Notes under the pieces: generated by a model
What the model was told of the DNA's origin: nothing
The model's database searches: none
The model's input: the letters and a program-made list of their open reading frames with translations, nothing else
Source: a virus
Virus record (IMG/VR): IMGVR_UViG_3300025872_000001
Length of the DNA stretch: 64,000 bases
Strand: one strand, 5' to 3'
Position numbers and translations under genes: made by a program
Shown: in pieces, positions 1 through 63,738 of the stretch
Layout of the letters: every line of letters starts with the position of its first letter
How positions within the stretch are numbered: the first letter of the stretch is position 1

Positions 1-2585
<2,585 letters not shown>

Positions 2586-9074: not shown

Positions 9075-9538
9075 GAGCCAGTCCTTTCGCCAAAGCCAGC
9101 CAAGCCGCGATCAGATTCGTCAAGCGATTCTGTTTGATGCGCAGAGAATGCGAACATTGGCATGAATATAAGCTGCCCAATCTTATCTCCCTTTTGATAA
9201 ATCAGAGAGTTTTTAGAAAACTTCTTTCCAAGAAATCTAAATCTAAGCTTTATCGTATTTCTGTAACCAGCATCAATAACTCCAACTGAATTCGCCAAAG
9301 CTAACTCGTACTTGCTAATGCTAGAACGCGGAAACAGTAAGGTATAAAATCCATTTGTTGGTTGAAGCACGACACCAGTATCATATTCGATATACAAAAT
9401 ATTTTTCTTTTTGTCGTCAGAATAAACAATTTCTGGATCGCAAGAAGCAACCAGATCCCAGCCAGCATCTCCTTTGGCTGGGGCAATCAAATTGTTTTCG
9501 AATCCATTTTTTAAAACTTTGAACGATGTTTGTTCCAT
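9071..9538 (-). CDS. dut: dUTPase (trimeric)
   Basis: GDAGWDL, PRSS, GVIDAGYR, GDKIGQL, RG..GFG. Confidence 0.93.
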   Translation of the reverse strand: MEQTSFKVLKNGFENNLIAPAKGDAGWDLVASCDPEIVYSDDKKKNILYIEYDTGVVLQPTNGFYTLLFPRSSISKYELALANSVGVIDAGYRNTIKLRFRFLGKKFSKNSLIYQKGDKIGQLIFMPMFAFSAHQTESLDESDRGLAGFGERTGS

Positions 9539-15489: not shown

Positions 15490-17007
15490 ATGAATAAGAT
15501 TAATAATATTAATTCAAGTAAACTGTTTAAGGTTTTTGCGCTTCTCGCTGTATTAGCTGCTTTTTCCAGTCAGTCTGGCGCAGTTCCAAGCGTAGCTTCA
15601 ACAAATTTGCAAACAACTCCTGGAGTATCTATTACTCAGCAGGGCAACACATTAAACTTTACTGCTCCAGACCGTTCAGTGTTAAACTGGAATAATTTTG
15701 GTTCTGGTGCTGATGGAATTAATGCTGGAGATACATTGTCCTTTGCTCTTCCAAACTCTAATGCCTCAATTCTTAATGTGGTTCTCGGCACCAATCAAAC
15801 TGCTATCAATGGCACAATTGAATCTAATGCTAAGGTTTTTATTTTAAATCCTAATGGTATTGTTGTTGGCTCTGGCGCAAGAATTGATACTGCTCAACTT
15901 ACACTTTCGACTGTCGATAATCCATTTGCTGCCCAATTTAAATATCTTGCTGATGGAACTATTCCATCTCAAAGTGGAACTCGTACAGCAAGTGGTACGA
16001 CGACCATTCAATCAAATGCAATTATCGCAAGCCCTAATGTGACCATCCTCACCAAAGATATCACTATTGGTGGCGCACTTACAGGAGGTAATTTAAATGT
16101 TATTGCGGATGGTTCAGTTACTTTAGGATCAGCCGGTTCAACTACTTGGGTTTCTGGTAATCTTTCAGTTACTAACCCAACTGGCTCAACGACAGTTGGC
16201 GTACCTACTGCAAATGTTGGAGCTAATGGCAGCATTGTTATCGATTCGGTCTCTGGAAACATTGTGAATGCCGTAGGCTCTCGCGTAAACGCCAAAAGCT
16301 TAACAGCCACTACAACAAGTGGAGATATTTCTTTGGGTGCAGTAGCCGCAACAAATGTTACAGCTAGTGGTAAAAATGTAACCGTCGCTTTTGAAAACAA
16401 TCCAAATGCTAATTTTAGTGGCGCTGCGACAAATGGATCTATGACAGTTTCTGCTCCTACATTTTTAAATCTTGTTGACGTGAAGGGCAATAGTGCTGGT
16501 AATTTTTCATTTACTGCTGGAGCTACCTTGACTCTTAATAAGGTACATCTTGATGTAACCGGAAATACATCTTTTGCTGGAACTCGCGTTGTTGACTCTA
16601 CAGATGGAGTATTTGTATACGGACCGACATCATTCACCGCAACATCTGGAGATGTAGCTGTAACAAAAGCCAATCATAGTTTTGGCCCACTCAGCGCATC
16701 TGCGTCAGGAAATGTTACAGTTTTTGAAAATGGCGCAATTAACATGAATGTTATTCGCGGCACAGATGTTAGTCTTAAAACAGCAGAGTTTGCATTTCAA
16801 ACTCCAACCACGGCCTCAATTCTCGCTACTAAATTCTCATTGGCTGCGGCAAAAGATGTCATTTTTTACACTGGAACAATTTCTAATGGCCTTACCATTA
16901 ATACACTTGGCAATGTTGATCTTGGAAAACTTAGTTTAGCAACTAATCTTAATAATGTTGCAGCTACTATAACTACAACAGGAACAGTAACAAATCCTAC
17001 GCCGTAA
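15490..17007 (+). CDS. Secreted filamentous-haemagglutinin/TPS-domain beta-helical exoprotein
   Basis: Signal peptide; LNWNNF, ILNVV, INGTI.SN..VFILNPNGIVVG.GA.I (TPS secretion domain); Gly/Thr/Asn-rich beta repeats. Confidence 0.85.
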   Translation: MNKINNINSSKLFKVFALLAVLAAFSSQSGAVPSVASTNLQTTPGVSITQQGNTLNFTAPDRSVLNWNNFGSGADGINAGDTLSFALPNSNASILNVVLGTNQTAINGTIESNAKVFILNPNGIVVGSGARIDTAQLTLSTVDNPFAAQFKYLADGTIPSQSGTRTASGTTTIQSNAIIASPNVTILTKDITIGGALTGGNLNVIADGSVTLGSAGSTTWVSGNLSVTNPTGSTTVGVPTANVGANGSIVIDSVSGNIVNAVGSRVNAKSLTATTTSGDISLGAVAATNVTASGKNVTVAFENNPNANFSGAATNGSMTVSAPTFLNLVDVKGNSAGNFSFTAGATLTLNKVHLDVTGNTSFAGTRVVDSTDGVFVYGPTSFTATSGDVAVTKANHSFGPLSASASGNVTVFENGAINMNVIRGTDVSLKTAEFAFQTPTTASILATKFSLAAAKDVIFYTGTISNGLTINTLGNVDLGKLSLATNLNNVAATITTTGTVTNPTP

Positions 17008-41119: not shown

Positions 41120-44100
41120 TTACTCAAGCGACAGTATAGAACCTCTAGAGTCGAGCCATTCCGTTTGATCGCGGAATATCTCGGCTCTTTCATTTGGTCT
41201 GATAATAGAGATCTCATTTCCTTCTGCATCCAATATATGTAGATTATGAGATGATCCTCTGTTCACGATTACAACGGAGTTGCCCTCTGCAACATCTGCT
41301 GGCATAACAATAGAGGAGTCTGTTCTTGGGGTAATTAAATTAATAGAATTCAATTTATCTTCTGGAAGCTCATATTCAGACTCTATTCTTTTTGCTTTTC
41401 CGCCACTACCTATTATTGTTGTGCCGTTGTATGTAAATTTTACTCCAATTGTTGCTGATTCTGCACCAATAGCAGTCCAATTGACGCTTGAGCCTAAAGC
41501 ATCTATTTGATAGTTAGCCCCATTTACAAGAGAATTAGTATGAATATTAAATGAATCTTGATCTTCATTTCTGCCCCCATCTACTTCAAATCGATTTGCT
41601 ACTGGATTAATTCTTTCAACAGGTTCAATTTCAAGATAACCACTTACGACATTTGAAATATCACCGGGACCAAAATCATCCCAAGGTCTAAATCTAAAAT
41701 AGTGCCATTTACCAGTTTCTAGACCTTCTGCTAATCTAATTGTATTTACATAACTTCTTGTTTTGTCGAGATTGACATAATTAAATTGATTGGTATGATC
41801 TACAATATCAGCTTCAAACACTCTTTTTACTTGTGCATCGCTACCGTTTATTGCTGTTCCATTGTATTCGAATTCTGTTCCAATAATAGGTGTTTGAGAT
41901 GGGCATCCAATAGCTTTCCAATTTACGCTGGAGCCGACATTCATAATTTCATACCAATTTCCATTAGCCATACCAGTATGATCAATAATTTCTGGAAAAC
42001 CTTGTCCAGTATATACATCAACGCTATAAACATCTTTATTTGATGTAGTATTATAACAGTTAAATATAATTTGGCCTTTTGAAACATCCTCTGGCAAAAC
42101 TGTAAATGAAATACCAGAAAATCCTGTTGTATTCGCAGCAGTTATAGTTTCGAGGTTGGCAATTCCAAGTGGATTTCCTTTAGTAGAGGGAACTTTTCTG
42201 CCCTCTCCACTACCATAAGCAGTAAAATGTTCTAGTCCCCAATCCTCAATCGATGTAGCCTTATCTACATTATCATTATAGTATTTGATTAAATCTTCAT
42301 AAGCATAAACATAGGCTTCATAATCAGCTTCTCCAGTTCCTTTATAATTAATTCCTACTCCAGCGCGCTCTGCCGTAGAAGTTATTCCAGTTCCATTATA
42401 ACCAGTTGCTGTTAAAAATGCTCCAGAAATATCCCTAAATGTTAATGGAACAGAATCATCTTCACTTCTAATTAATTCTCCATTTAAATCTCTAACTCCA
42501 GATCCAGATATTGTTCCTGTAGTAGTATTGTTTTCTGGATTCCATAATGCTATTCCAGTAAATGTGCTGTGGCCATAGTAGCCAGAAAGCACATAATACG
42601 GAGAGTTTTGATAAGAATCAATTACTTGAATCTTGTTATAATATGGATATTGATTATGGGCATAAAATGTACCTGTTTTAGTTAGGTTAGTATTATCTTG
42701 TACTATTACTCTTAAACCAAGTGATCTTGAGTATTCTACATTCTTTGCAGATTCAGTTTCTCTACTGAATAACTCTCCATTCATTTTTTGAGTTACTGTA
42801 TAAGATAAACCTTGATAATTTTCCTCTTGTTTTAATATTTGTCCAGCATTATCCAATATTTGAACTGTAACTTTTTGAGGAAGATCAACGAATGGATTTT
42901 CTAAAATTTGTTCCTTGGTTGACATAACCCCACCAGTAGGATCTATATATTTCCATCTGAAGGTAACATCCGCAGATGTAAAGTTGCCAACTCCCGCTCC
43001 AGCATAAAGTCCTCCTCCTAAATGAGCGATTTGATAATTAACTGAATTTTTATCAGCAGTATCAATTGTAAAGCCACTTGGTATTGTTGAAGTTATAGTA
43101 TAACCTCCTTGACCAGTTAAGGTCGCACTCGGCAATATGATTGCCCCAGTTTGGGCAGCGTCAATTGATAATAATTTATATAAAACCCCTTGAGAATAAA
43201 CATCAAAATCATACTGACCATAAGCTCCGCTTATTGGAACAGTTAATGTAGTTATGCCAGAAGCTACTGTATAAGCATCAGTTATAGAATCATATTCATC
43301 TCCAAGAGTTGAATAATCTGGTCTACTGACATAAACCTTGTAGCCTACAATTGGGCTACTTGTGCCTGACCAAATAATATGGACTCCAGTTCCTCCATAT
43401 CCGCTTACACTAACTATTCCAGATGGAGGATTTGGCTTGACGACTACATCGTATGGCCCTTGAACATAATAGCTAGGCGAAGTATCCATCATATCTTTTT
43501 CGATGAATTCTTCTTTGTCGCGCAAATATTCTATTCCTACAACAGAATATTGATTAGCCTCTTCTTCTTTTGTCGCAATAGTTTTATAAAGTTTCGGTTC
43601 TATTCCAGAGCCACTCAAAACATAAAGAGAACCTTCTGATATTAAATCAAGATTTTTAGGAGTTGTATCTACAGTTAGATTATAAAATCCTTTTTCATAT
43701 CCAGTTCCGTATATCAAACCGCTATAACCAATTCCATTTTCTTGAGCAAGTAATCTTAAATCACTTTGGCCCAAAGTCCCACCTCCAACATAAACATTTA
43801 AACCAAGAGCATTAAAAGCATTAGATACATGGGTAGATGTTAATGCTGAATTTGTATATATTTTTTCAGATCCGTAAAATCCTTTTGGCATTCCAACTGT
43901 ATAATATCCTAAAGAATTACCTTTTGACCATTTTGACTGAGCGGCATTACCATCAATAAAATCACTAGTAAATGCTAAAGCTGATTTTGTATGAGCTTTT
44001 GTGCAAATATAAGTTTCTGAATTATACTTGATAATATTACCAACTGCATACTCTCTGCCAGATTGCCATTCTTCGTAATTTGATTCGGCGCGATTACCAA

Positions 44101-46906
44101 AGTCAGCTTGAACAAATGTGTAATATGGTCTTAATCTTGTAAAGGCAAGAAGATCTCTATAAGTAAATACTAAACTTCCAGTATCATTTGAAGTTTTAGA
44201 TGCACGCTCAAGTATTCTGTAATTGCTATTATTGGCGCTTGTATCATTTTTTATTAAAGCGGCTAAATAACTACCAGCAGTAGCACTATCAGCGCCTAAT
44301 TTATAAATTTCTGTAGCAGCATAAGATGCAAATACAGATGGTACAGCTGTCTGCCAAGCAATTGGACTTCCATTAGATACTATTACAATCACTTCTCCAT
44401 TGTTTCTTCCTTCTATAAATGAGCCTATATCCGCTAAAGATGCACTAGTTGAACTTTGAGCAACAAAAGCTCCAGCGGAATTTAAAGCTATGGCTGTTAA
44501 GTTTGATGCCGTAGTTCCTCTCTGAACTCCATCTACATTAACTATACCATTTGATCCAGAAATATAACAAGTCCAATTAGGTTCAGAACCGATTACTTGA
44601 CCAGTTCCATCGATACCAGAAAAATTAATATCAATCTCCAAATCTGATAAAACTCCAGATACATTAGAGAATGTTAATGAATCCCATTTAGGATTGCCGG
44701 TTGCTACAGTATGTTCTGGGAAATAGTAAACCTCTCCAGTTAAAATAGTTTGACCAGTATATGACGCCCCAGATATTCTACCCTCTACTGGATAAACGTC
44801 AGTTACTACTGACTGCAATAGAAAATCACCAGTAAGTGTTAATGTGGCCCCATAAGAATTATCAACAACAGTATGTAAATTAAATTTTCGTGTTTGTCTT
44901 TGCCTTCTAGCTCTAATTTGCTCAAGCGTTCCAGTAAATCCTCCGTCGCTTCCAGTTAATGAATTTAAATCTGAAACAGAAAAATTTCCAGATGGAACAT
45001 GAATATATATTCCAGAAGCTAAATCTGGATGGAATTCTCCATCAATTTTAATTGTTTTAGCGTTTTCATCTATTTCAAGTATTCTTCCAAACGATCTTCC
45101 TACGTTTCTTACCTCATCGCTTACTCCGAAAATATCTCCTGGTTGTAGATATGCGCCCTCTAATCCCGCAGTAAATGTAACGGTATCAGATTCAAACATT
45201 GAACTGCATATAATATATCTACCAATTCGTCTTGCTTCTGATCGTGAAGTGCAGCCAGCAGCATTAACTTTAAATGGATTTAAACCAAAATTTCTTATTC
45301 CATCGACATCTTCAATGAATTCAACTTTAGTTTTAAAGTCATCGTACTTATCGTTGTAAGTTATTTCTACACTTGTGTATCTTTTGTTTTTAGCTGTTTC
45401 AGTATATACAAATGCTCCATCTTTAACATTAACATTGGCAAAATAAATGATTGGATCTTTTTTCTTGTCAGCGAAGAATGAAAAACCTTCAGTGTTCCAA
45501 TATATAATTCCTTTAAATATTGCCGCAACATCTTTAAGGATATTGTATGCTTCGTCTTTATTATAATAAATAATATTGCATGTATATCTTGGCTCAAGAC
45601 CGCCCTTGCCATCAGGAACGCCTCTAAATCTGCCATCATCATCTACGGCGTCACAATATCTACCAATATCATATAAAGTCCATTTATCTATTGAACTGTT
45701 GTCAATATAATTACCAAGACCATAATTATAATCAGTAACAATATCATATAAAATCCAAGCTGGATTATCTGTCCACGCTAATTTAAATGTGCCATCCCAA
45801 TCTCCGTAATAAATTTTATTACTATCATAAAAGTTTCTATCGCAGAATTGTTGTAACTTTATATCAGAATCGCTGGCGAGATTAAATTTTGCACCTCCAG
45901 TGTCTTCAGCTAATTCCCTTAAAGTTCTAGTACCAGAAAAATCAGGATCAGCGTGGAGATAATAAAATTGAATTCCAGCCTCTCTCGCTCTGTTCAATGA
46001 GATTTGATAAGTTTCTGGAGCCATTACTTCTGGTATATGACCAGAAAAATATATAACCTTTCTAACAGTATTGACCCAAAGTTTTTCTGTTACAGCTTCT
46101 TCTCCACTTTTACCGACTTCATCCGTTATACTAAATTGGGTTTTTCTAAAAAAGAAATTCGCAATACTTGTTTCTGAAGGATCGACTGTAGGCGATAAAG
46201 GAGATGCTGCTAGGGCATCGTCAAGTAATTTAATTAAATTTGTTTGATTTGCGCCGGTAGAATCTGGCGTCTCCATCTCAGAAAAGTTACTTGAAGAATA
46301 ATATGTAAAATTATTTATGGTCTCTTTTGTTGCTTCATTAACAATGAAATTAGTATTATTTGCTGCTGTTTGCCATATAGAAAATCTTACATTAGTATAG
46401 CCAGAAACAAGTTTAAAGATAAACTCTTTTAAATTTCTTCTTAATAATTTTCTGCTTCGTTCATTCATGTTTTGGTCAACCATGAATATAACATCAAGAG
46501 TATTTGGGTTTGCAGGATAATCTGGATTTGCAAAAACATATCTCCTATCTAAACCATTACCACCAAGAGGAAAATAGTTAGAAGGCACTTTAACCTTCTT
46601 CATTTTAACATCATACTGTCTTTCTGGGATACTGCTAAATGTTCTAGAATCAAATTTTAATCCAACATGCGCGGTTAATGGATAAGAAAAGTTTCTGTCT
46701 ACAACTTCATATATTCCATCTAATGAAACATCTCTTTTTACCAAAGGTGAAATAGTTTCTGGACTTCTCTTTTCTATAGTAATGTATCTATCTCTTCCAT
46801 TTTCCGAATCTGGAAGAACAAGTTCGTTTGATGTAATTAGCCCAGCTTGACTAACAATATTTGTATCAATTGTGTCGTCTTCTGTATTGTCGCCGTTTGG
46901 AGTCAT
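41120..46906 (-). CDS. Tail tip/host-specificity protein J-like, main C-terminal part (with vWA and other insertions)
   Basis: YP.TA.VG...DS..F, VKVPSNY, Y.G.WDGTFK.AWTDNPAWILYD, YGLG, IDKW.LY.IG.YCD, EPRYTCN, GCTSRSEARR.GR. Confidence 0.9.
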   Translation of the reverse strand: MTPNGDNTEDDTIDTNIVSQAGLITSNELVLPDSENGRDRYITIEKRSPETISPLVKRDVSLDGIYEVVDRNFSYPLTAHVGLKFDSRTFSSIPERQYDVKMKKVKVPSNYFPLGGNGLDRRYVFANPDYPANPNTLDVIFMVDQNMNERSRKLLRRNLKEFIFKLVSGYTNVRFSIWQTAANNTNFIVNEATKETINNFTYYSSSNFSEMETPDSTGANQTNLIKLLDDALAASPLSPTVDPSETSIANFFFRKTQFSITDEVGKSGEEAVTEKLWVNTVRKVIYFSGHIPEVMAPETYQISLNRAREAGIQFYYLHADPDFSGTRTLRELAEDTGGAKFNLASDSDIKLQQFCDRNFYDSNKIYYGDWDGTFKLAWTDNPAWILYDIVTDYNYGLGNYIDNSSIDKWTLYDIGRYCDAVDDDGRFRGVPDGKGGLEPRYTCNIIYYNKDEAYNILKDVAAIFKGIIYWNTEGFSFFADKKKDPIIYFANVNVKDGAFVYTETAKNKRYTSVEITYNDKYDDFKTKVEFIEDVDGIRNFGLNPFKVNAAGCTSRSEARRIGRYIICSSMFESDTVTFTAGLEGAYLQPGDIFGVSDEVRNVGRSFGRILEIDENAKTIKIDGEFHPDLASGIYIHVPSGNFSVSDLNSLTGSDGGFTGTLEQIRARRQRQTRKFNLHTVVDNSYGATLTLTGDFLLQSVVTDVYPVEGRISGASYTGQTILTGEVYYFPEHTVATGNPKWDSLTFSNVSGVLSDLEIDINFSGIDGTGQVIGSEPNWTCYISGSNGIVNVDGVQRGTTASNLTAIALNSAGAFVAQSSTSASLADIGSFIEGRNNGEVIVIVSNGSPIAWQTAVPSVFASYAATEIYKLGADSATAGSYLAALIKNDTSANNSNYRILERASKTSNDTGSLVFTYRDLLAFTRLRPYYTFVQADFGNRAESNYEEWQSGREYAVGNIIKYNSETYICTKAHTKSALAFTSDFIDGNAAQSKWSKGNSLGYYTVGMPKGFYGSEKIYTNSALTSTHVSNAFNALGLNVYVGGGTLGQSDLRLLAQENGIGYSGLIYGTGYEKGFYNLTVDTTPKNLDLISEGSLYVLSGSGIEPKLYKTIATKEEEANQYSVVGIEYLRDKEEFIEKDMMDTSPSYYVQGPYDVVVKPNPPSGIVSVSGYGGTGVHIIWSGTSSPIVGYKVYVSRPDYSTLGDEYDSITDAYTVASGITTLTVPISGAYGQYDFDVYSQGVLYKLLSIDAAQTGAIILPSATLTGQGGYTITSTIPSGFTIDTADKNSVNYQIAHLGGGLYAGAGVGNFTSADVTFRWKYIDPTGGVMSTKEQILENPFVDLPQKVTVQILDNAGQILKQEENYQGLSYTVTQKMNGELFSRETESAKNVEYSRSLGLRVIVQDNTNLTKTGTFYAHNQYPYYNKIQVIDSYQNSPYYVLSGYYGHSTFTGIALWNPENNTTTGTISGSGVRDLNGELIRSEDDSVPLTFRDISGAFLTATGYNGTGITSTAERAGVGINYKGTGEADYEAYVYAYEDLIKYYNDNVDKATSIEDWGLEHFTAYGSGEGRKVPSTKGNPLGIANLETITAANTTGFSGISFTVLPEDVSKGQIIFNCYNTTSNKDVYSVDVYTGQGFPEIIDHTGMANGNWYEIMNVGSSVNWKAIGCPSQTPIIGTEFEYNGTAINGSDAQVKRVFEADIVDHTNQFNYVNLDKTRSYVNTIRLAEGLETGKWHYFRFRPWDDFGPGDISNVVSGYLEIEPVERINPVANRFEVDGGRNEDQDSFNIHTNSLVNGANYQIDALGSSVNWTAIGAESATIGVKFTYNGTTIIGSGGKAKRIESEYELPEDKLNSINLITPRTDSSIVMPADVAEGNSVVIVNRGSSHNLHILDAEGNEISIIRPNERAEIFRDQTEWLDSRGSILSLE

Positions 46907-46922
46907 TATATTATAATAAATT

Positions 46923-47495
46923 TTAACCTGTTATTGTAAATGTCCTTGTGTACCAAAATTTTTCCCTTGGATCACTTGGAGTTGAACTGGCAGACAATCT
47001 TACTGGAGCGTTATCTGGAGACGCAGCATCTATATAAACATAGTGTGTACCAATACTTAATTGTTGTGTTACCTCCGCTGGGATAACAAAAGAAAACTGT
47101 CCAACTCCATTTACTGAAATTTCAGATCCAGTTGCATAAACTTGATAAGGAATTAAATTTTTATCTACATTTTGTAAACCCACATCAATCTGAGCAACAA
47201 CCATTGTTGCTGGTTTAGTAATGTGTGAGCCTCCTCCGCTTAACAAATAAGTAGCTGTTCCACTTAATGTTATAGTCCCACCTCTTGCACAACTTGAATT
47301 AGATATTGTATTGAACACTGCGGCTGCTCCATCTCCAACTACACCAGGACTATAAATAATTCTTTCTGGAGCGGATGGAAAATAGTCTTTCTTTTCACGC
47401 TTTCTTAAATTATATATAATAGGCAATACCGCAGAATAATTTCTAGGATTAATTTGGGAAGCCATAACCTCCTCATATGTTTTTTGTAATGGCAT
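46923..47495 (-). CDS. Ig-like/beta-rich hypothetical protein inserted between the J fragments
   Basis: 190-aa ORF with GQFSF.IP...L..G.H.VY. Confidence 0.65.
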   Translation of the reverse strand: MPLQKTYEEVMASQINPRNYSAVLPIIYNLRKREKKDYFPSAPERIIYSPGVVGDGAAAVFNTISNSSCARGGTITLSGTATYLLSGGGSHITKPATMVVAQIDVGLQNVDKNLIPYQVYATGSEISVNGVGQFSFVIPAEVTQQLSIGTHYVYIDAASPDNAPVRLSASSTPSDPREKFWYTRTFTITG

Positions 47496-47496
47496 A

Positions 47497-48399
47497 TTAG
47501 ACCTCTTGTACTTTGGTTATAACGTCAGCTAAAACTGTATCCCCAGATACTCCCACTAATCTTGCGCCTCTACTTCCAGCTACTATTGAATTTGTATTCA
47601 ATACGGCTCCACCTGTCGAAGAAGCAGAACCAACGTAAGATGCTGAATTGAATTGACCAAGTGGTTCTCCAAGCATACAGGCATATGGGCTTGTAACTGT
47701 TCCAAATATAGAATATTCTTTTACAATTATTTTGTTGCTGCCTTCAACTCCACAAGTTACAGATATTCTTAAATCTGTTGATCTGTTCATGCCCATTTTG
47801 CCTTGCTGCCCAGGACCAGAACCTTTATCAACTGTATCAAATAAAGATTCAATAATTAAACTTAATCTAATTTTTTTGACATCTTTATTTTTTATATGAT
47901 GCGTGTATACAAATGGATCTTTAGCTTCTGTAGGCCAGCCAGTTGCCCAACCTGTAAAATCTCTTATGGAACCATTGTTTGGATCTTGTCTATGGTCTGG
48001 AGATCCTGCTATTCCAGCATTATTAACGACTATTGGGCCTAGTAATTTAAAACTAGCTGGCTTCCATATATAAACATTTTTGAAGTTCTCCAAAGGTTTT
48101 TGATTTTCAGTTCCGAGGTTTATTTCCATTACTACGCTTCTAAAATTATATTTTCCATCATAGTTCATGACAGGAACTTTATTTAAATAAATTCCCTTTA
48201 ACATATCAAGACCGTAAACTTTTTTGCCAAATTGATCAACTAATCCATAAATTGGCCCTTCGCAAAGCAAATCAACAGACTCTGAAATAGAGATAGACTT
48301 CAACAAAGTTTGATCGGCTGGAGCGACTAAAGCTGGAATTGGCGCTTTATCTCCACCGCCTTTGCCTTTATAAAATCTATATGGATTTAAAATTTTCAT
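47497..48399 (-). CDS. Tail tip protein J-like, N-terminal fragment
   Basis: GKGGG, L.S....VDLLCEGPI.GL, IYLN.VPV, GTENQ, G...SPY, matching the lambda J N-terminus. Confidence 0.82.
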   Translation of the reverse strand: MKILNPYRFYKGKGGGDKAPIPALVAPADQTLLKSISISESVDLLCEGPIYGLVDQFGKKVYGLDMLKGIYLNKVPVMNYDGKYNFRSVVMEINLGTENQKPLENFKNVYIWKPASFKLLGPIVVNNAGIAGSPDHRQDPNNGSIRDFTGWATGWPTEAKDPFVYTHHIKNKDVKKIRLSLIIESLFDTVDKGSGPGQQGKMGMNRSTDLRISVTCGVEGSNKIIVKEYSIFGTVTSPYACMLGEPLGQFNSASYVGSASSTGGAVLNTNSIVAGSRGARLVGVSGDTVLADVITKVQEV

Positions 48400-51041
48400 T
48401 AGGCGGTCTGAACTTTTTGAGAAAGAACTGGGTTGCCAATTCCTTTAAATGTAGTTGATGTAGATAGGAATTGAACGTTTATTTTCACGGGAGCAGAATA
48501 CAATGTTTGTTTATTATTTATATTAACTTTACATCTGTATCTAGCCTTATAAGAAGAATATCCACTTGATTTTGCTCCGCTCAATTCTGGGCGCTCCGCA
48601 ATAAATCTCACAATTCTATTAGAATCGGAAGATTTTTCTTCAGAGTATGTTATAAAATCTTCGACGACCTTTCCTGTGCCAGTTGCTGATGTTGAGTTTT
48701 TGACAAAAACGCTTTGGATATTATTTATCGGAGAGCCAATTGAAGTCCAATTGGTTGAATCTAATGAATGTATTTTATATTCTTCACCAGCAATCATTGA
48801 CGACACATCTAATACTCTTTTACCTATATCTGAAAACTTTTGATTTTTGGGGGTACTTGGATCAGGAAACCCGTGAAATAATTTTTCTTTTGGAACAGAT
48901 TGCCAATCAGAAAAAACACCATCTCTATTTGTGTCGTATCTATAATATATGCTGATTCCTTCGCTACCTCTTAAATCTTGAACTCTAGCTAATAAACGGT
49001 GATAACCGGCTGTCAAATACAATGTCGTCGTTGAAGAATTTAAAGCCGCAATTTCTGCATTAGATGGTTTTTGAACCCAAGGAGGATTCGCAAAACCAGA
49101 AAACATTCCATGCCCACTATAATATGCGCTTGCCAAAGTTGAATCTATATATAAATCTGAAGCATCATCTGAATCAAGTTTAAATTCATATGCTCCCACC
49201 AACATTACTCTGCCATTGCCTGTTCCTTGGGTTGAATTTTTATAAAATGTAGACCCAACTCTAGGAACTATAGCCGCACCATTTAAACCAGTGAATCCTA
49301 ATCCGCTCCATTGACCAGTATCTCCAATTTTTATAATTTCATATAGGCCAGTAGCAGTTCCAATTTCATATACATCTTTCACAAATGATTTACCGTCGCC
49401 ACCAACTGTTGGAACATAGAAGTACCCAATTAACTCCATACCATAATTGTCAACATTAGAATTAGAACCATTTAATGACTGCTCATTTAATGCGCTAACT
49501 TCACCAATATACGGCCCAGATTGATTTTTATAAGCTGGATAATCATTAAATAATGTATCCATCTCCGCAGTTGTTGTTGGACTCTCTACTCTAGTCCAAT
49601 ATGCGGATTCAGCAACAGGCGCACCACCAGCTAATTCTCCAGTTGTGGGCAAATGACCGGAAACTGGTGCGGTGCATTTATATAAATACTCTAAATTTGG
49701 AGGTAGAATTTTTCTCCAATATGCTGAATTAATTGTTAAACCATCTCCAGTTGGCGATTCTCCCGAAAATCCTGCTGCAACGATAGCTTGAAAGTATGTA
49801 TTTGTGTCTGATCCTGTTGGATAATTTACCAATTCTCCACTAAAATAATTATACCCACTATCCCAAACTCCAAATTTTAAATTATAAAATTGCGTAGGCC
49901 CGAACTTAACCAAATCTCCAACAGAATATTTTTGGAAATAACCAGTTTCATTGCTTTTTAAGTTCGCAAAATCTGATTGTACTTTAAAATCTGGAGTATG
50001 GTATGATCTCATAATCAAACCAGATTTTACTGCATATGGATTTTCTATAAAAACTTTCTTTCTTGAACTGTCATTGCTTAACTCCTCCCATTCATAAGTA
50101 ACATCTTCGTCAAAAGTAGTTAAATCTGGATTTGAAATAATCTCATTATTTCTTTTAACGACTACTTCTACTGGATTAGAAATAACTTTCGACGCACTAT
50201 TTGTTACTATATCTATATAAGAATTTAAAACATTGACGGAACAAAAAGTTACCGTATCTTCCATATCAACAGCTTGATTCGTAGAGAATTTATCTACTAC
50301 TGATCCAGCCGATTCAGCTTCATTTTCTGCAATCAATTCAATATAATCATTAGTTGGCTTATCAACAGGAGTCATCAATTGCTTAATATCAGTATTTAAA
50401 GCGTAATGGTCGATACTAGAACTAATTTGAGAGTGACCGATCTTTAATCGGCCATAGCCAACTGGGATCGCCTGTCCTTGGGCCGTATTAGATGGTTTAT
50501 TACCAAATAAATAAGACTTACCACCAGCTTGAACTTCTTGATTGAAATCTGGTTTAGGTGGTGGGAATAATAATCCCATTACTCCTTGTAAAGCTATACC
50601 TACGCCAAGGCTAAATAAAGCCGTACCTAATGCAGAAAATGAACCTGCGCCAGCAGCGCCCATTACTGTAGTCGATCCAATTCCTCCAAGTACGCTACTA
50701 AATCCAGCGCCCAAAAATCCTGCTGCTCCAGCAGTAGCGATGGTCAACGCTAATCCAACTGCAATTAAAGCTCCATTTTTTCCTGCACCCCAAACAATTG
50801 GTACAATATGAATTTCTTTTGGAGCTTTTTGAACTTCAATTTCTTTAGGATGCTGAATAACATTATCATCGACAACTATTCTATAATGAACTCCTTGTAT
50901 TGCTAGTCTCTTTATTTCATCTAGAAACCCCCTTCTGTTTGAATTGATCGCAAGAAAAGCTTCTTTAGGAGAATTTATATTAAATCTAAATTCCTCACCA
51001 AATTTATTTCGCAATTCGCCGTATAAATATACATTAGTCAT
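48399..51041 (-). CDS. Tail assembly protein I-like with a long PA14/carbohydrate-binding extension
   Basis: V.LYG.L..KFG, IHIVP...GA, SYLF....N...QG..IPVGYGR; PA14-like YEF.L.SDD.S.LYI...L.AGYH. Confidence 0.85.
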   Translation of the reverse strand: MTNVYLYGELRNKFGEEFRFNINSPKEAFLAINSNRRGFLDEIKRLAIQGVHYRIVVDDNVIQHPKEIEVQKAPKEIHIVPIVWGAGKNGALIAVGLALTIATAGAAGFLGAGFSSVLGGIGSTTVMGAAGAGSFSALGTALFSLGVGIALQGVMGLLFPPPKPDFNQEVQAGGKSYLFGNKPSNTAQGQAIPVGYGRLKIGHSQISSSIDHYALNTDIKQLMTPVDKPTNDYIELIAENEAESAGSVVDKFSTNQAVDMEDTVTFCSVNVLNSYIDIVTNSASKVISNPVEVVVKRNNEIISNPDLTTFDEDVTYEWEELSNDSSRKKVFIENPYAVKSGLIMRSYHTPDFKVQSDFANLKSNETGYFQKYSVGDLVKFGPTQFYNLKFGVWDSGYNYFSGELVNYPTGSDTNTYFQAIVAAGFSGESPTGDGLTINSAYWRKILPPNLEYLYKCTAPVSGHLPTTGELAGGAPVAESAYWTRVESPTTTAEMDTLFNDYPAYKNQSGPYIGEVSALNEQSLNGSNSNVDNYGMELIGYFYVPTVGGDGKSFVKDVYEIGTATGLYEIIKIGDTGQWSGLGFTGLNGAAIVPRVGSTFYKNSTQGTGNGRVMLVGAYEFKLDSDDASDLYIDSTLASAYYSGHGMFSGFANPPWVQKPSNAEIAALNSSTTTLYLTAGYHRLLARVQDLRGSEGISIYYRYDTNRDGVFSDWQSVPKEKLFHGFPDPSTPKNQKFSDIGKRVLDVSSMIAGEEYKIHSLDSTNWTSIGSPINNIQSVFVKNSTSATGTGKVVEDFITYSEEKSSDSNRIVRFIAERPELSGAKSSGYSSYKARYRCKVNINNKQTLYSAPVKINVQFLSTSTTFKGIGNPVLSQKVQTA

Positions 51042-51396
51042 ATTGTTTCTTTAATATATCTATATACTCTTTATTTACATGAGGCTTCTTGGGGAGCACC
51101 AGATTAAATTTTTTAGTTTCTTTGCTATAAATAACATAAGGTATGCAAGAATTTTCGCAATTAAATATATCAAACTTTGATTCGGCTTCGCCTGTTTTTG
51201 GATGAGTGTGGTAAATGGCGGCAAGTTTGCCACTTCTTATTTGTCTTAAAATTTCTAAAGGATGAATTTCAAATACATCATCTTTGTAAACTGCAACATT
51301 CTTTGCCGGTTCTGTTTTTAATTCGTCTCCATCGACAAATACAAAACCACAAACTTCGTTATCAGATGTATTAGCGTGATCAATTATAGATTGCAT
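51034..51396 (-). CDS. Tail assembly protein K-like (JAB/MPN domain only)
   Basis: EVCG, YHTHP......S..D; no NlpC/P60 domain. Confidence 0.82.
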   Translation of the reverse strand: MQSIIDHANTSDNEVCGFVFVDGDELKTEPAKNVAVYKDDVFEIHPLEILRQIRSGKLAAIYHTHPKTGEAESKFDIFNCENSCIPYVIYSKETKKFNLVLPKKPHVNKEYIDILKKQYD

Positions 51397-51397
51397 A

Positions 51398-52909
51398 TTA
51401 TGAGCTTATTGAATATTCTTCTGTACCAGGGAAGCCGCCGAATGGCAAATAATCTTGATTTCCAAATCTTAATCTGCATCCATCTATTGTTTTAGAGCAT
51501 TGATCTCCAGCCCAATGCTCTTTATTAAATGCGGGATGTTTTGCTCCGGTTGCGACATGAGTTTTGGCGCAAATATAAAATTTATACAATGGACTCCAAT
51601 TAGGATTTTCGTTTATATTTTTTTTAGCAACTTTAATATTTGTATTTTCAATGTAAACATATTCGCCAACTTTATAAGTTGCCCCATTTTGCCATCTACC
51701 ACGATTTAAACCGTCATTTAAAGCATCGTTGTTTAAACTTACCCAAGAAGAAATTTGACAAGAGTTAAAAAATCTTTCAGAAGTTGTTAATAAATTTTGT
51801 TCTCCCAAATCGTAATAAAATCTAGAAAAAGGAATGACTGCCCAACTTGAAGTGGTAACAGATGGCACTTTATAATAAACATTTAAACCATAACCTGGTC
51901 CTTCATGCTCGCGATGTCTTATGAAAATTCTATGATATCCCGCAGATAATGATACTGAGCCTTGCGTCCCTTTTGGAAGCACAGTTCCATTCGCAGGTCC
52001 AGGGCCATAATCAAAAGCAATTAATTTCCCATTTATCCACAGTTCCGCAGCATCATCTGGATTAAGACCAAATTCATAAACACCAGCTTGATCTACGTCA
52101 ACTTTAAAATAACCTATAAATTCATTTGCAGAATTAACAGTGCTTGAAACATTAAATGCTGACGCGATAGATTCAGACCCAGAAGTAAATGTAGCATTTG
52201 TGATTATACTTGTAAAAGTTGATGCTGTTGGCGTAACTCCACCAGCATTTGTATAATATCTTTTCAAAAGCCCAGCTTTAAAATCTAAGGCTTTTCTAAG
52301 GCGCATATCGTTTTCGTCAGCAACTGGCGGTCCCATATACCTACATCCATTGCCTCTGTAATGAAAAGAACAATATCTTGCCATTACTGTTCTTTTTGGG
52401 AAATTGACATTCTCTAACTCAAGTGGCGAAGCTAATTCAAATTCGACCAAAGCTCTACTTTCAGCCGACCTTCTTAGAATAAAAAACACCTGATCTTCTA
52501 ATCCAGCAGTAGAGTCTGCTGAACCGTATGGATTTTGATTATTAGAGAAATTTTGGTTATCTAGAAACTTAACAAAAGTTCTTTTTCTTACTATTTTGGC
52601 CCCAACTAAGTTGCTATAACGACGAATTAAGTTAGAAACGAAGAAATCTTGATTAGAAATGGACAATTTGGGTCTTGGTAAAGTACCATCTCCTTTACTT
52701 TCAAAACCCGAACTTTGTATTGGAAATGGCAGATACTCAACGCCTTGCCAATAAATCGACCCTCCTATACCGTTGGTGCCACCATGAACATAAAGTTTAT
52801 CGTCAGGTCTATTAATGTAATCATAGTAAATAACAAAAAACTCCAACAAAGCTGTTGGTTCCAGCGAAAAAAGCTCCGCATTAACTTTTTGATTAGAAGC
52901 CCTTGACAT
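51398..52909 (-). CDS. Minor tail protein L-like with PA14 insertion
   Basis: I.WQG..Y.P.PI...GFE..G.G..PRP.L, FELAS, C..YR..GC.Y, C.K...GC.LRF, FGGFPG. Confidence 0.9.
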   Translation of the reverse strand: MSRASNQKVNAELFSLEPTALLEFFVIYYDYINRPDDKLYVHGGTNGIGGSIYWQGVEYLPFPIQSSGFESKGDGTLPRPKLSISNQDFFVSNLIRRYSNLVGAKIVRKRTFVKFLDNQNFSNNQNPYGSADSTAGLEDQVFFILRRSAESRALVEFELASPLELENVNFPKRTVMARYCSFHYRGNGCRYMGPPVADENDMRLRKALDFKAGLLKRYYTNAGGVTPTASTFTSIITNATFTSGSESIASAFNVSSTVNSANEFIGYFKVDVDQAGVYEFGLNPDDAAELWINGKLIAFDYGPGPANGTVLPKGTQGSVSLSAGYHRIFIRHREHEGPGYGLNVYYKVPSVTTSSWAVIPFSRFYYDLGEQNLLTTSERFFNSCQISSWVSLNNDALNDGLNRGRWQNGATYKVGEYVYIENTNIKVAKKNINENPNWSPLYKFYICAKTHVATGAKHPAFNKEHWAGDQCSKTIDGCRLRFGNQDYLPFGGFPGTEEYSISS

Positions 52910-61939: not shown

Positions 61940-62476
61940 ATGATTAATAATGTTTATAAGTTGTCTGAGGAAGAGCGCGCACTTGCTAAAAAACTCGGCA
62001 ATGCTCGCAACAACGCAAAACATGAATCGTTCCGAGATAAAGATCGATTTAAAATTAACAGAGAAAGCGGTTACTCTCATATCCTTGGCATCTCTGCTGA
62101 GATCGCCTACGCAGCTTTAACTAACCAAGAAATCGATACTAAAATTTATGATCTTGGTGATGAGATTGATTTTGATGGTGTTGAAATCAAGGCTGCGACT
62201 TGGCCGCATAAGAATATTGAATTAAAAATTCCTTTTGAAGAATACGAGAAAAAGAATCCTAAAATCTATGTTCTCGCCAGAATCGACAAAAATTACACTA
62301 CAGTTGAATTCATAGGCTCAATCTCAAGAAAAACATTTGATAAGTTGAAGTATTGCAAGAAGCACACCCAAGTGAATAATTGGTGCGTCAACGAAGATCA
62401 AATGTCGAAAGTTCTCGCTTTCTTCAAGGACGGCAAGTACGAGCAAAAAGAATTTAATTCAAAAAAAATCTCTTGA
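61940..62476 (+). CDS. Putative PD-(D/E)XK nuclease-like protein
   Basis: G..AE.A, D....DF.GVEIK. Confidence 0.5.
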   Translation: MINNVYKLSEEERALAKKLGNARNNAKHESFRDKDRFKINRESGYSHILGISAEIAYAALTNQEIDTKIYDLGDEIDFDGVEIKAATWPHKNIELKIPFEEYEKKNPKIYVLARIDKNYTTVEFIGSISRKTFDKLKYCKKHTQVNNWCVNEDQMSKVLAFFKDGKYEQKEFNSKKIS

Positions 62477-62507
62477 CCCCGTTACATTTTGTGTCAGAGT
62501 AAGCACC
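62473..62507 (+). promoter_or_regulatory. Sigma70-type promoter of uvsE (leaderless geometry)
   Basis: TTGACC at 62473, a TGn-extended -10-like element, and ATG 35 nt downstream. Confidence 0.6.
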
Positions 62508-63413
62508 ATGCAACTCGCACTCTGCTGCATCTCCAACGTTCTTGCCGAGCAAGGTTACAAGTTCCAAACTATGACCTTGACTCGCTTCTTGTCGCTACCC
62601 CGTGCCGACGCTATTCGCACTCTCAGTGACCGCATCCTCAACAACTTTGTTGTCACCAATCGCATCATTCAGCATTGCGCCGACACCGGCATTGCTGGCT
62701 ACCGCTTGTCGTCCACGCTTACTCCTGTCATCGACCATCCTGACGTTAATCTTCGTCTCGACCAATTGCCCAACTGGTCTGACCTTCGCGCTGCTCTCGA
62801 CACCATCGCCGCTACTATCAAACGCACTGGTGTTCGCATTTCCGCGCATCCTTCAGAGTTCATCACTCTAACCAGCACTGACGACGCCGCTATCACCAAC
62901 AGCATTCGCGATCTCACTGCTCACGCTGACCTTTTCGACTTGCTCGACCTACCACTCGACTATCGCTCACCTCTCAACATTCATTGCCGTCAAGACGGCG
63001 ACCCTGCTGTTATCTCTGCTCGTTTCCTTTCCAACTTCAATCGTTTACCAGCCAATGTTCGCTCTCGTCTTGTGCTAGAGGTCAACGACAACGTTGACGG
63101 CACTTGGTCTGTATCCAACTTGCACAAGTATTTCTTCGTTCCTGCTGGCATTCCCATCACCTACGATTCCCTGCACCGTCAGTTCTGCAATCACGGCAAC
63201 GACGATGCCGCAGACTTTCACCTCGCCTACTCCACTTGGCCCACAATTCCTTTGTTTCATTATTCAGAAGGTATTGACAATACCCGCAAACACGCTATGA
63301 TGCCTCTCAATTCACCCAACAACTATGGCAAGCCCGTGTTCTTCGACGTAGAACTCAAAGGCAAAGACCATGCAATTTATCACATCCTCAACAATGCAAA
63401 CAAAAATCAATAA
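62508..63413 (+). CDS. uvsE: UV DNA damage endonuclease (UvsE/UVDE)
   Basis: LCCIS, YRLSS, RISAHPSEF..L.S, NIH, RLVLEVND, PITYD.LH, TW...PLFHYSE, H, DVELKGKD.A. Confidence 0.9.
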   Translation: MQLALCCISNVLAEQGYKFQTMTLTRFLSLPRADAIRTLSDRILNNFVVTNRIIQHCADTGIAGYRLSSTLTPVIDHPDVNLRLDQLPNWSDLRAALDTIAATIKRTGVRISAHPSEFITLTSTDDAAITNSIRDLTAHADLFDLLDLPLDYRSPLNIHCRQDGDPAVISARFLSNFNRLPANVRSRLVLEVNDNVDGTWSVSNLHKYFFVPAGIPITYDSLHRQFCNHGNDDAADFHLAYSTWPTIPLFHYSEGIDNTRKHAMMPLNSPNNYGKPVFFDVELKGKDHAIYHILNNANKNQ

Positions 63414-63738
63414 AGTTAGAGACCAAATTGTCAGTAAGCTCAATGAACTCGGTATCGAATTCTCCATAGAAGACATGGAGATCGAAAAGGCAGATTTTTC
63501 TGCCAAGCTAACTGGATACAAAATCGTTGCGACTAACTTGATGGGCTGTATCGTTCCAAACTTTCATAAGAAGCGCCCCGAATATTTAATCTTTAATGAC
63601 AAATTGGTTTCTCACCTCATTTCTGAAGGTTACGACGACACCTACATTGAGGAGCATGGCAAGATTTGGACTCACCTTTTCAAGCAGTCAGATTTCGTGG
63701 AAGTATTTAAGGAAGCCCATACATTTAAATTTAATTAA
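63394..63738 (+). CDS. Hypothetical protein
   Basis: ORF overlapping the end of uvsE. Confidence 0.6.
   Translation: MQTKINKVRDQIVSKLNELGIEFSIEDMEIEKADFSAKLTGYKIVATNLMGCIVPNFHKKRPEYLIFNDKLVSHLISEGYDDTYIEEHGKIWTHLFKQSDFVEVFKEAHTFKFN

What the first reader, a model, noticed from the sequence alone, without database searches (positions are those of the whole stretch)
62508..63413. A UV-hardened UV-repair gene: the uvsE template strand is stripped of dipyrimidines
Seen in the sequence: composition changes abruptly at this gene. Purine-purine steps on the coding strand equal pyrimidine-pyrimidine steps (CPD/6-4 photoproduct sites) on the transcribed strand. Hand counts give only about 3-6 per 60-nt line across 62581-62820, against about 17-18 per line in the adjacent gene (61981-62100). 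Arg is encoded by CGY rather than the AGA common elsewhere in the window. The bias reaches the protein: only about 8 Lys and 5 Glu in 301 aa, in a genome whose proteins are typically K/E-rich. Several survivors sit in conserved UVDE motifs (HPSEF, LEVND, HYSE, ELKGKD). Established: template-strand pyrimidine dimers block RNA polymerase, non-template dimers largely do not, and UVDE incises at these lesions. Inference: selection reshaped both codons and residues so that a sunlight-damaged incoming genome can still transcribe its own repair enzyme. The gene has its own host-type, leaderless promoter, so no long upstream transcript has to be traversed.
Basis: partly seen in the sequence, partly recalled or inferred. 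Interest (0 to 1): 0.88.

Follow-up and report, generated by a model that had tools for sequence, protein, structure and literature searches.

The report
Phage UV-repair gene stripped of dipyrimidines
A freshwater phage's UV-damage endonuclease gene is written with nearly the fewest possible purine-purine steps, which about halves the template-strand sites where sunlight damage could block its own transcription; the pattern is real and kept by selection, but that purpose is not proven.

Summary
ORF 62508-63413 is a true UvdE. Its coding strand has 13.6% purine-purine (RR) steps, against 23-40% in 67 other ORFs.

- **Size of the effect:** about half comes from amino acids (K+E 4.3%) and half from codons (R3 0.20; Arg 19/19 CGY). 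It survives shuffles that preserve GC3 class and shuffles that use early-gene codon usage (z -6 to -9).
- **Near the floor:** the gene has 122 RR steps. Synonymous recoding could give 108 to 294.
- **Origin:** the trait is derived. It deepens stepwise in a nested freshwater-phage clade, is absent from basal and cellular uvdE, and persists through 28-57% turnover of four-fold sites. It is therefore selected, not an HGT relic.
- **Promoter:** relatives with the trait carry TTGAC 29-33 nt before the ATG, a leaderless-type placement.
- **T4:** the unrelated denV gene is the most RR-poor real gene of T4.

The UV-hardening reading is only partly supported.
- Depletion is not clearly graded by photoreactivity.
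- The codon choices follow the phage's early-versus-late codon axis (r=0.71).
- The codon-junction biases are amplified genome-wide biases.
- 23 denV clusters show only a weak trend.

UV target-size minimisation is my best reading (about 0.4). The rivals are expression or RNA-level tuning.

The parts
62473..62478 (+). TTGACC, a -35-like hexamer lying exactly 35 nt before the ATG
   Evidence: Read directly from the sequence. TTGAC ends 29-33 nt before the ATG in 42 of 45 distinct upstream regions of relatives with RR<0.27, and in none of the 5 basal ones. In the window, 9 of 67 ORFs have TTGAC at -32 to -37 from their start, where about 0.4 is expected.
62492..62500 (+). TGtCAGAGT, a weak extended -10-like element. 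It lies 16 nt after the -35 hexamer and ends 7 nt before the ATG, which implies a leaderless or near-leaderless transcript.
   Evidence: Sequence and spacing. The consensus scan did NOT call it, so this part is inferred.
62508..63413 (+). uvsE/uvdE coding sequence (301 aa), UV damage endonuclease
   Evidence: Pfam PF03851 E=1.6e-34. Profile match to solved UVDE 3tc3 at E=1.5e-36 and to 2j6v. RR=0.136, R3=0.20.
62581..63240 (+). Core of the purine-purine depletion (70 RR steps in 659; 3-11 per 60 nt)
   Evidence: core counts AA 21, AG 13, GA 25, GG 11 of 659 steps.
63274..63301 (+). Promoter-like site TTGACA-16-TATGAT inside the 3' end of uvsE, probably serving the next ORF. The depletion fades here.
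   Evidence: 11 of 12 matches. The RR profile per 60 nt rises to 11, 13 and 19 from 63241 on.
63370..63738 (+). Downstream ORF (122 aa, no family) overlapping the last 44 nt of uvsE. Its composition is ordinary (RR 0.296).
61940..62476 (+). Upstream ORF (178 aa, no family) of ordinary composition (RR 0.340). It marks the abrupt 5' boundary of the bias.

Best explanation
The gene encodes a working-type UV damage endonuclease of a large freshwater tailed phage. It is transcribed by the host RNA polymerase from its own TTGAC-type promoter, probably as a leaderless mRNA.

Within one phage lineage, selection has pushed the coding strand to about the minimum number of purine-purine steps that the protein allows. 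It has also changed the protein: Lys and Glu are kept almost only at invariant positions and are replaced by Arg(CGY), Ala, Pro, Leu and Thr.

Each purine-purine step on the coding strand is a dipyrimidine on the transcribed strand. The change therefore cuts the number of template-strand sites where a cyclobutane dimer or 6-4 photoproduct could stall RNA polymerase by about 2.2-fold.

Most likely purpose (inferred, not shown): to shrink the UV 'target size' of the one phage gene that must be read from a still-damaged genome before phage-encoded repair can start. This is probably combined with tuning for immediate translation by host tRNAs, through avoidance of the A-ending codons that the late genes favour.

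Shown: the gene family, the composition, that the trait is derived and maintained, and the promoter placement. Inferred: the transcription start, early timing, and UV as the selective agent.
For: 1. Extreme, strand-specific, gene-limited depletion that survives GC3 and early-gene codon controls. It reaches 92% of the attainable synonymous reduction.
2. It acts at three levels: amino acids, codons and codon junctions. Junction RR is 21 against 29.8+-2.4 (z=-3.75); the other 66 genes average +0.76+-0.98, minimum -1.49.
3. It is derived. On a tree rooted with cellular UvdE, RR falls stepwise from 0.29-0.30 to 0.22-0.26, then 0.18-0.21, then 0.14-0.16. A photoproduct-weighted template index falls from 9.1 to 7.7, 6.2 and 4.5, while the coding-strand index stays at 7.9-8.7 (the weights are from memory).
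4. It is maintained. Crown members differ at 28-57% of four-fold sites, mostly C<->T, yet all keep R3 at 0.19-0.24 inside phages whose other genes have R3 of about 0.44.
5. Cellular uvdE genes and Bacillus phage SP-15 uvdE are unbiased. This fits the logic, because a cell already holds the enzyme when it is hit.
6. The depleted lineages carry a promoter placed for a leaderless transcript, so there is no purine-rich Shine-Dalgarno leader. Basal lineages have TTGACA-17-TATAAT plus a Shine-Dalgarno leader.
7. Convergence. T4 denV is a non-homologous UV-repair enzyme. It has the lowest RR of 208 T4 ORFs (0.210 against 0.300+-0.034) and the lowest position in its synonymous range (0.128, rank 1 of 208). 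It lies below all 86 length-matched ORFs.
8. Among about 1600 ORFs in 91 related loci, the lowest RR values are essentially all uvsE genes. The other low ones are spurious frames.
Against: - No clear grading by photoreactivity. Against basal relatives, AA is 0.50, GA 0.48, AG 0.44 and GG 0.65. After correction for base composition, only AG and GG are under-represented.
- At junctions, G|G and G|A are avoided but A|A and A|G are not. The larger effects (C|C and T|A avoided, C|A and T|C favoured) are not predicted by UV and are amplified forms of window-wide biases.
- The codon preferences correlate with the phage's early-minus-late codon axis (r=0.71).
- The generality test is weak. In 23 clusters of environmental denV genes the mean z for RR is -0.29 (Wilcoxon p=0.03; 18 of 23 negative), and the codon-level mean z of -0.22 is not significant. 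An earlier sample of nine had looked stronger.
- Contigs from RNA libraries run from the upstream gene into uvsE, so read-through transcription cannot be excluded.
- The consensus scan does not recognise the promoter's -10 element.
- Any DNA-level reading predicts the same sequence as an RNA-level purine-avoidance reading.
Confidence: 0.4

Rival explanations
1. Expression-kinetics tuning without any lesion logic. The gene is an immediate-early gene hyper-optimised for fast translation by the host's own tRNA pool, before phage tRNAs appear, and for favourable codon pairs. The purine-poor strand is a by-product of choosing C/T-ending codons.
For: - uvsE codon preferences lie at the far end of the window's early(replication)-minus-late(tail) axis (r=0.71, p=3e-10). 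Examples are AGA 4.77 to 2.22 to 0, CGC 0.29 to 1.34 to 3.79, and TTA 3.15 to 1.37 to 0.18.
- Its junction biases are stronger versions of genome-wide ones.
- An unchecked note from this scan reports a tRNA operon further along the same genome.
- There is no photoreactivity grading.
Against: - G-ending codons rise along the early-late axis (G3 0.09 to 0.17) but are avoided in uvsE (0.09). CTG, CCG, ACG, GCG, CGG and GGG total 3 uses.
- Translational selection does not explain the loss of Lys and Glu down to invariant positions, nor the amino-acid-only expectation being the lowest in the window.
- Even with early-gene codon usage as the null, z=-7.5.
- Neighbouring small early-type genes are ordinary.
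Confidence: 0.25
2. RNA-level purine avoidance. The C-rich, G-poor, Shine-Dalgarno-free leaderless mRNA is selected for a property of the transcript. Candidates are escape from a purine- or GGAG-type endoribonuclease (as T4 RegB cuts early mRNAs), avoidance of internal Shine-Dalgarno-like sites, fewer G-dependent polymerase pauses, little secondary structure, or strong Rho loading.
For: - GGA, GGG, GGAG and AGGA each occur 0 times in 906 nt, where about 6 and 4 are expected for GGA and GGG from base composition.
- AG and GG are the steps under-represented after composition correction.
- C is 33.7% against G 16.8%.
- The leaderless promoter placement co-occurs with the bias.
- The sequence signature is identical to that of the DNA-level reading.
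Against: - No such nuclease or factor is identified in the window.
- AA steps fall as much as G-containing ones, which Shine-Dalgarno or GGAG avoidance does not explain.
- It is unclear why only the UV-repair gene, out of about 1600 ORFs in related loci, would need this.
- It is also unclear why T4 denV would share it.
Confidence: 0.15
3. Compositional relic of recent horizontal transfer from a GC-richer donor with different codon usage.
For: The gene's GC is 0.50 against 0.37 for the window, with abrupt boundaries. uvdE is patchily distributed and mobile among phages.
Against: - Every homologue at 55-99% identity lies in phage-like contigs. The only hits among 185,579 species genomes are 5 short MAG contigs.
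- Cellular and basal homologues have ordinary composition.
- The bias increases stepwise inside the phage clade.
- It persists through 28-57% four-fold-site turnover in hosts of 35-47% GC.
- G-ending codons are avoided, unlike GC-rich donors.
Confidence: 0.03

Closest known systems
UvdE/Uve1/UvsE UV damage endonucleases (Pfam PF03851; solved: Sulfolobus acidocaldarius 3tc3/4gle, Thermus thermophilus 2j6v)
   Same: Clear sequence membership, full-length alignment, and invariant His/Glu/Asp motif positions (HPSE, LEVND, HYSE, DVELK) are kept.
   Different: Cellular members sampled here, and basal phage members, have ordinary coding-strand composition (RR 0.24-0.30, position 0.48-0.54 in the synonymous range). 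This clade sits at 0.14-0.16 and 0.08-0.12.
Phage T4 denV (endonuclease V, pyrimidine-dimer glycosylase)
   Same: A phage-encoded first-step UV-repair enzyme. It is the most RR-poor real gene of its genome and the closest to its synonymous minimum.
   Different: It is an unrelated fold and chemistry. The effect is much milder (RR 0.21, position 0.13) and mostly at the codon level. Its amino-acid-only expectation ranks 32 of 208.
UV target-size effects on transcription: classical UV mapping of transcription units, and short or compact damage-response genes in eukaryotes (from my own knowledge)
   Same: The same physical premise. Expression after UV falls with the number of template-strand lesion sites between promoter and gene end. 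An own promoter and a short transcript help.
   Different: Known cases change gene length or position. Here the density of lesion-prone steps itself appears to be lowered by recoding codons and residues.
Genome-wide dipyrimidine or TT avoidance and high GC proposed as UV adaptation (Singer and Ames 1970; haloarchaeal genome signatures; from my own knowledge). Transcriptional-strand asymmetry of TT in human genes (PMC8002178, title and abstract seen).
   Same: Sequence composition is read as lowering photoproduct yield.
   Different: Those are genome-wide or class-wide and mostly strand-symmetric. This is one gene and one strand, with amino-acid change, in an AT-rich genome.
Early-versus-late codon-usage split in tRNA-carrying phages
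   Same: uvsE codon choices lie on that axis in this window.
   Different: uvsE lies far beyond the early genes, avoids G-ending codons as well, and has changed its protein composition.
Dinucleotide-rule early operon in another freshwater giant phage (scan note e1-5373761)
   Same: A gene-limited, strand-specific dinucleotide avoidance in an early phage gene, kept across relatives.
   Different: That rule removes TC and CC from the coding strand. Here TC and CC are enriched about 2- to 2.7-fold on the coding strand and the depleted steps are purine-purine.

Membership tests
UvdE (UV damage endonuclease, PF03851) | Match to the family profile above the curated cut-off | tested here: met
   119.9 bits against a cut-off of 24, E=1.6e-34, residues 12-261.
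UvdE (UV damage endonuclease, PF03851) | Homology to experimentally solved UVDE enzymes | tested here: met
   The profile of 20 relatives hits 3tc3 (S. acidocaldarius UVDE) at E=1.5e-36 over positions 29-291, and 2j6v at E=2.8e-14.
UvdE (UV damage endonuclease, PF03851) | Conserved metal-binding and catalytic His/Glu/Asp positions | tested here: met
   H114, E117, H159, E191, D194, H223, H251, E254, D280 and E282 are invariant in 20 relatives. HPxxY, E-N-D and H motif positions align with 3tc3. Their assignment as metal ligands is from my own knowledge of the structures.
UvdE (UV damage endonuclease, PF03851) | TIM-barrel fold | not tested
   No structure was predicted, because sequence homology was judged sufficient.
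UvdE (UV damage endonuclease, PF03851) | Incision 5' of CPD and 6-4 photoproducts | not testable with these tools
   Needs an enzyme assay.
Sigma-70-type promoter giving a leaderless mRNA | -35 hexamer at the right distance from the start codon, recurring in relatives and in other genes | tested here: met
   TTGACC lies at -35. 42 of 45 depleted relatives have TTGAC 29-33 nt before the ATG. 9 of 67 window ORFs have it at -32 to -37, against about 0.4 expected.
Sigma-70-type promoter giving a leaderless mRNA | Recognisable -10 element and a transcript 5' end at the ATG | tested here: inconclusive
   Only a weak extended -10 (TGtCAGAGT) is present, and the consensus scan did not call it. Contigs from RNA libraries bridge 62225-62563 and 62378-62811. 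Contigs cannot show 5' ends.
Recently transferred compositional island | Close cellular or donor relatives share the composition, and the bias decays with residence time | tested here: not met
   Cellular and basal relatives are unbiased. The bias grows toward the crown of the phage clade and persists through 28-57% four-fold-site turnover.
Translationally optimised (host-adapted) gene | Codon preferences follow the genome's expression or host-adaptation axis and nothing more | tested here: inconclusive
   The axis correlation is r=0.71. However, G-ending codons are avoided, the amino-acid composition has shifted, and z=-7.5 against early-gene codon usage.
UV-hardened gene (proposed kind) | Template-strand dipyrimidines depleted beyond amino-acid, GC and codon-class controls, and strand-specifically | tested here: met
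UV-hardened gene (proposed kind) | Depletion graded by photoreactivity (TT > TC > CT > CC on the template) | tested here: inconclusive
   Against basal relatives: AA 0.50, GA 0.48, AG 0.44, GG 0.65. At junctions only G|G and G|A are avoided.
UV-hardened gene (proposed kind) | Recurs in independent phage UV-repair genes but not in cellular ones | tested here: inconclusive
   T4 denV ranks 1 of 208. IC12 denV ranks 1 of 15 and LPST94 denV 2 of 23. But 23 denV clusters have mean z of -0.29 for RR and -0.22 for codons. Cellular uvdE is unbiased.

The most novel reading that the evidence does not exclude
Phages can harden the gene for their own first-step UV-repair enzyme against the very lesions it removes. 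Selection on lesion target size, not on the protein or on translation, rewrites codons, codon order, amino acids and the 5' leader of a single gene, so that a sunlight-damaged genome can still express it. T4 denV would be a milder, independently evolved case.
Probability: 0.4. Interest if true: 0.9.

Novelty: new variant of a known kind. Interest (0 to 1): 0.75.

Why it matters
If UV is the cause, this is a new kind of selective force on coding sequences: damage-target minimisation strong enough to change a protein's composition. It would also explain part of how aquatic phages survive sunlight, which is a main cause of their decay.

It is directly testable with native and recoded genes.

Whatever the cause, the finding gives a clean natural example of a single gene held by selection within 8% of a dinucleotide optimum, over long divergence, in an otherwise ordinary genome. 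That constrains models of codon usage and shows that gene-level composition outliers need not be HGT.

It also gives a practical design rule, if confirmed, for UV-robust expression cassettes.

Tried and rejected
- **Annotation and database searches.** The Rfam and tRNA scans of the window found nothing. There was no DNA match in the phage collection. No whole genome is held for the window.
- **Overlapping or antisense gene.** Rejected as the cause. The longest open stretches in the other five frames are 45-96 aa in the window. Their lengths vary from 24 to 185 aa among crown relatives and none spans the gene. They are by-products of stop-poor composition.
- **Other low-RR ORFs in 91 related loci.** Nearly all are spurious antisense or alternative frames. 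One real 108-aa gene is only mildly shifted.
- **Coding-strand TT avoidance through C3/T3 choice.** Not present (TT 68 observed against 66.3 expected).
- **Rare-codon 'keep the nuclease low' idea.** Rejected. Rare C-ending codons are favoured while equally rare G-ending ones are shunned.
- **Transcription-associated deamination.** Rejected. It would raise T and G on the coding strand, not C.
- **Cellular comparators.** A search of 151 genomes of the phylum of one MAG hit gave nothing further. A second phylum gave four cellular uvdE in 301 genomes.
- **Generality.** The first sample of nine phage repair genes looked significant. The larger clustered sample did not sustain that at the codon level.
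- **RNA-library contigs.** They are contigs only, so they cannot show starts, strand or expression level. Parts of the gene without cover are not interpreted.
- **Literature searches.** No prior description of such a bias in uvdE or denV was found. The library is incomplete.

Full report
**What the window is.** The window is part of a large tailed phage.
- It encodes J- and L-type tail proteins, a DnaB-type helicase, a Pol III alpha-type polymerase, ribonucleotide reductase and a Lon-type protease.
- GC is 37%. No relative at the DNA level is in the phage collection.
- Near-identical sequence occurs in freshwater metagenomes. About 60-70% of its sampled words occur in estuary, marine, drinking-water, wastewater and aquatic runs of at least six further studies.

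**The gene.** ORF 62508-63413(+) is a UvdE. Pfam PF03851 matches at E=1.6e-34. A profile of relatives matches the solved UVDE of S. acidocaldarius at E=1.5e-36. The family's invariant His/Glu/Asp positions are intact.

- The gene has RR 0.136, YY 0.345, purines 39.6% and GC 0.50. The 67 other ORFs have RR 0.229-0.401.
- Third codon positions are 80% pyrimidine (C 48%, T 32%). Arg is 19/19 CGY and Gly 11/11 GGY. G-ending codons are avoided as much as A-ending ones. That already argues against ordinary GC-rich-donor codon usage.
- Lys is 2.7% and Glu 1.7%. Four of the five Glu, and K284 and K286, are invariant family positions.

**Controls.**
- With the protein fixed and codons drawn from the window's usage, RR is expected at 0.219+-0.009. 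The observed 0.136 gives z=-8.9.
- Keeping each codon's GC3 class gives z=-8.3.
- Codon usage of the replication genes, of the small neighbouring genes, or of the highest-GC3 quartile still gives z=-7.5, -7.6 and -6.4.
- The amino-acid-only expectation (0.219) is lower than for any other gene (0.308+-0.032, minimum 0.235). So about half of the effect lies in the protein.
- Dynamic programming shows that this protein could be encoded with 108 to 294 RR steps. The gene uses 122, position 0.08 in the range. Other genes sit at 0.45+-0.10 (minimum 0.26) and basal and cellular homologues at 0.48-0.54.
- Shuffling synonymous codons within the gene shows fewer R|R codon junctions than expected (21 against 29.8+-2.4). 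No other gene in the window does this.

**Evolution.**
- Homologues at 55-99% identity are numerous, and all lie in phage-like contigs from aquatic metagenomes.
- Among one genome each of 185,579 species, only five short MAG contigs match.
- Across 85 loci the bias is graded. The clade at 78% identity or more has RR 0.136-0.161 and R3 0.19-0.24, with flanking ORFs at RR about 0.30 and R3 about 0.44. The roughly 70% clade has RR 0.18-0.21. The 55-61% clades have 0.22-0.28. The basal lineages have 0.285-0.30.
- A tree rooted on cellular UvdE shows this as a nested, stepwise decline. The outgroup branches are long.
- Four cellular uvdE genes match their neighbours in composition.
- Within the crown clade, 28-57% of four-fold sites differ between members, mostly C<->T, while R3 stays low. 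The bias is therefore derived inside phages and held by selection. It is not an unameliorated import.
- The replacements from basal to crown are E -8, K -4, R +4, L +4, P +3.

**Promoter.**
- TTGACC lies exactly 35 nt before the ATG. A weak extended -10 (TGtCAGAGT) ends 7 nt before it.
- TTGAC ends 29-33 nt before the ATG in 42 of 45 distinct upstream regions of depleted relatives.
- One intermediate clade and the basal lineages instead have TTGACA-17-TATAAT with a Shine-Dalgarno leader, or nothing recognisable.
- In the window, 9 of 67 ORFs have TTGAC at -32 to -37, against about 0.4 expected. Leaderless-type promoters are therefore a class in this phage.
- Caveats: the consensus scan does not call the uvsE promoter, and contigs from RNA libraries run from the upstream gene into uvsE.
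- A strong promoter-like site (TTGACA-16-TATGAT, 63274-63301) for the next gene lies inside the 3' end. This is where the depletion fades.

**Does UV explain it?**

*In favour:*
- The logic is specific. Template-strand dimers stall RNA polymerase, which is established knowledge. The phage enzyme must be made from damaged DNA, whereas a cell already holds its enzyme.
- Accordingly the phage crown clade is depleted and cellular genes are not.
- With photoproduct weights recalled from the literature (TT 52, TC 21, CT 19, CC 7), the template index falls 9.1 to 4.5 along the tree, while the coding-strand index hardly changes.
- T4 denV is an unrelated UV-repair enzyme. It is the most RR-poor real ORF of T4 (0.210 against 0.300+-0.034) and ranks 1 of 208 for closeness to its synonymous minimum. 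The only lower ORF is antisense to gene 67.
- A rough estimate (inference): a normal 0.9-kb gene holds about 0.4% of the dipyrimidine sites of a genome of about 120 kb. At some tens of lesions per genome, halving the template sites changes the chance of a blocked repair gene by several percent per exposure. That is ample for selection in phage populations.

*Against:*
- The four RR steps fall about equally. After base-composition correction only AG and GG are low.
- At junctions G|G and G|A are avoided but A|A and A|G are not. The strongest junction effects (C|C and T|A avoided, C|A and T|C favoured) are exaggerated forms of window-wide biases.
- The codon preferences correlate with the early-minus-late codon axis (r=0.71).
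- Nine other phage repair genes gave mean z of -0.72. A larger set of 71 environmental denV loci in 23 clusters gave only z=-0.29 for RR (Wilcoxon p=0.03) and -0.22 at the codon level, which is not significant. SP-15 uvdE and NP1 denV show nothing.

**Verdict.** HGT, an overlapping gene, plain GC or early-gene codon usage, and rare-codon damping are all excluded as sufficient causes. UV target-size minimisation is the best single explanation (about 0.4). It probably acts together with tuning for immediate host-tRNA translation. RNA-level purine avoidance cannot be separated from it by sequence alone. I found no prior description.

Noticed in passing
window 1-2585 (+): A GC-rich (54-59%) collagen-like Gly-X-Y repeat gene (GYT, GWT, GDT, then GPQ/GPA units; periods of 9, 18, 45 and 63 nt). 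It is open in several frames on both strands because of the repeats. It is probably a collagen-like fibre protein.
   Followed up: partly
window: starts at 9538(-), 15490, 17788, 18423, 24654, 52940, 53454, 56397, 62508: Nine ORFs have TTGAC 32-37 nt before their start codon (about 0.4 expected), often with a TGn-extended -10. This is a class of promoters placed for leaderless or near-leaderless mRNAs.
   Followed up: partly
window 41120-52909 (-) against 19225-41119 (+): There is a strong early/late codon split. Tail genes use AGA, TTA, ATA and GGA (A3 37%, GC3 about 0.2). Replication genes use far fewer (A3 26%, GC3 about 0.35-0.4).
   Followed up: partly
window 62508-63413 and crown relatives (e.g. 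L001, L029, L039): Unexplained codon-junction rules occur only in the depleted clades. In the window, C|C is 19 against 38 expected, T|A 11 against 27, C|A 60 against 39, and T|C 38 against 26. CpG is 4-fold higher than in basal relatives.
   Followed up: partly
L031 17538-17864; also L038, L047, L078, and at about 54% identity L009/L010 17633-17917: A conserved 108-aa gene of no known family lies about 7 kb downstream of uvsE in related phages. It is also GC-rich (0.46-0.52) with lowered R3 (0.27-0.37) and RR (0.20-0.25). It is a second, milder composition outlier.
   Followed up: partly
L101/L103-L111 (phage T4, NC_000866) 64939-65355 (-): denV is the most purine-step-poor real ORF of T4 and the closest to its synonymous minimum (rank 1 of 208). 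I found no prior mention of this.
   Followed up: yes
window 63274-63301 (+): A near-consensus promoter (TTGACA-16-TATGAT) is embedded in the 3' end of uvsE, about 70 nt before the next ORF's start at 63370.
   Followed up: no
window 15490-17007 (+): A 505-aa protein with a TPS (two-partner-secretion) domain and a DUF4097 match, with unusual codon-position purine pattern (R1 0.73, R2 0.36).
   Followed up: no
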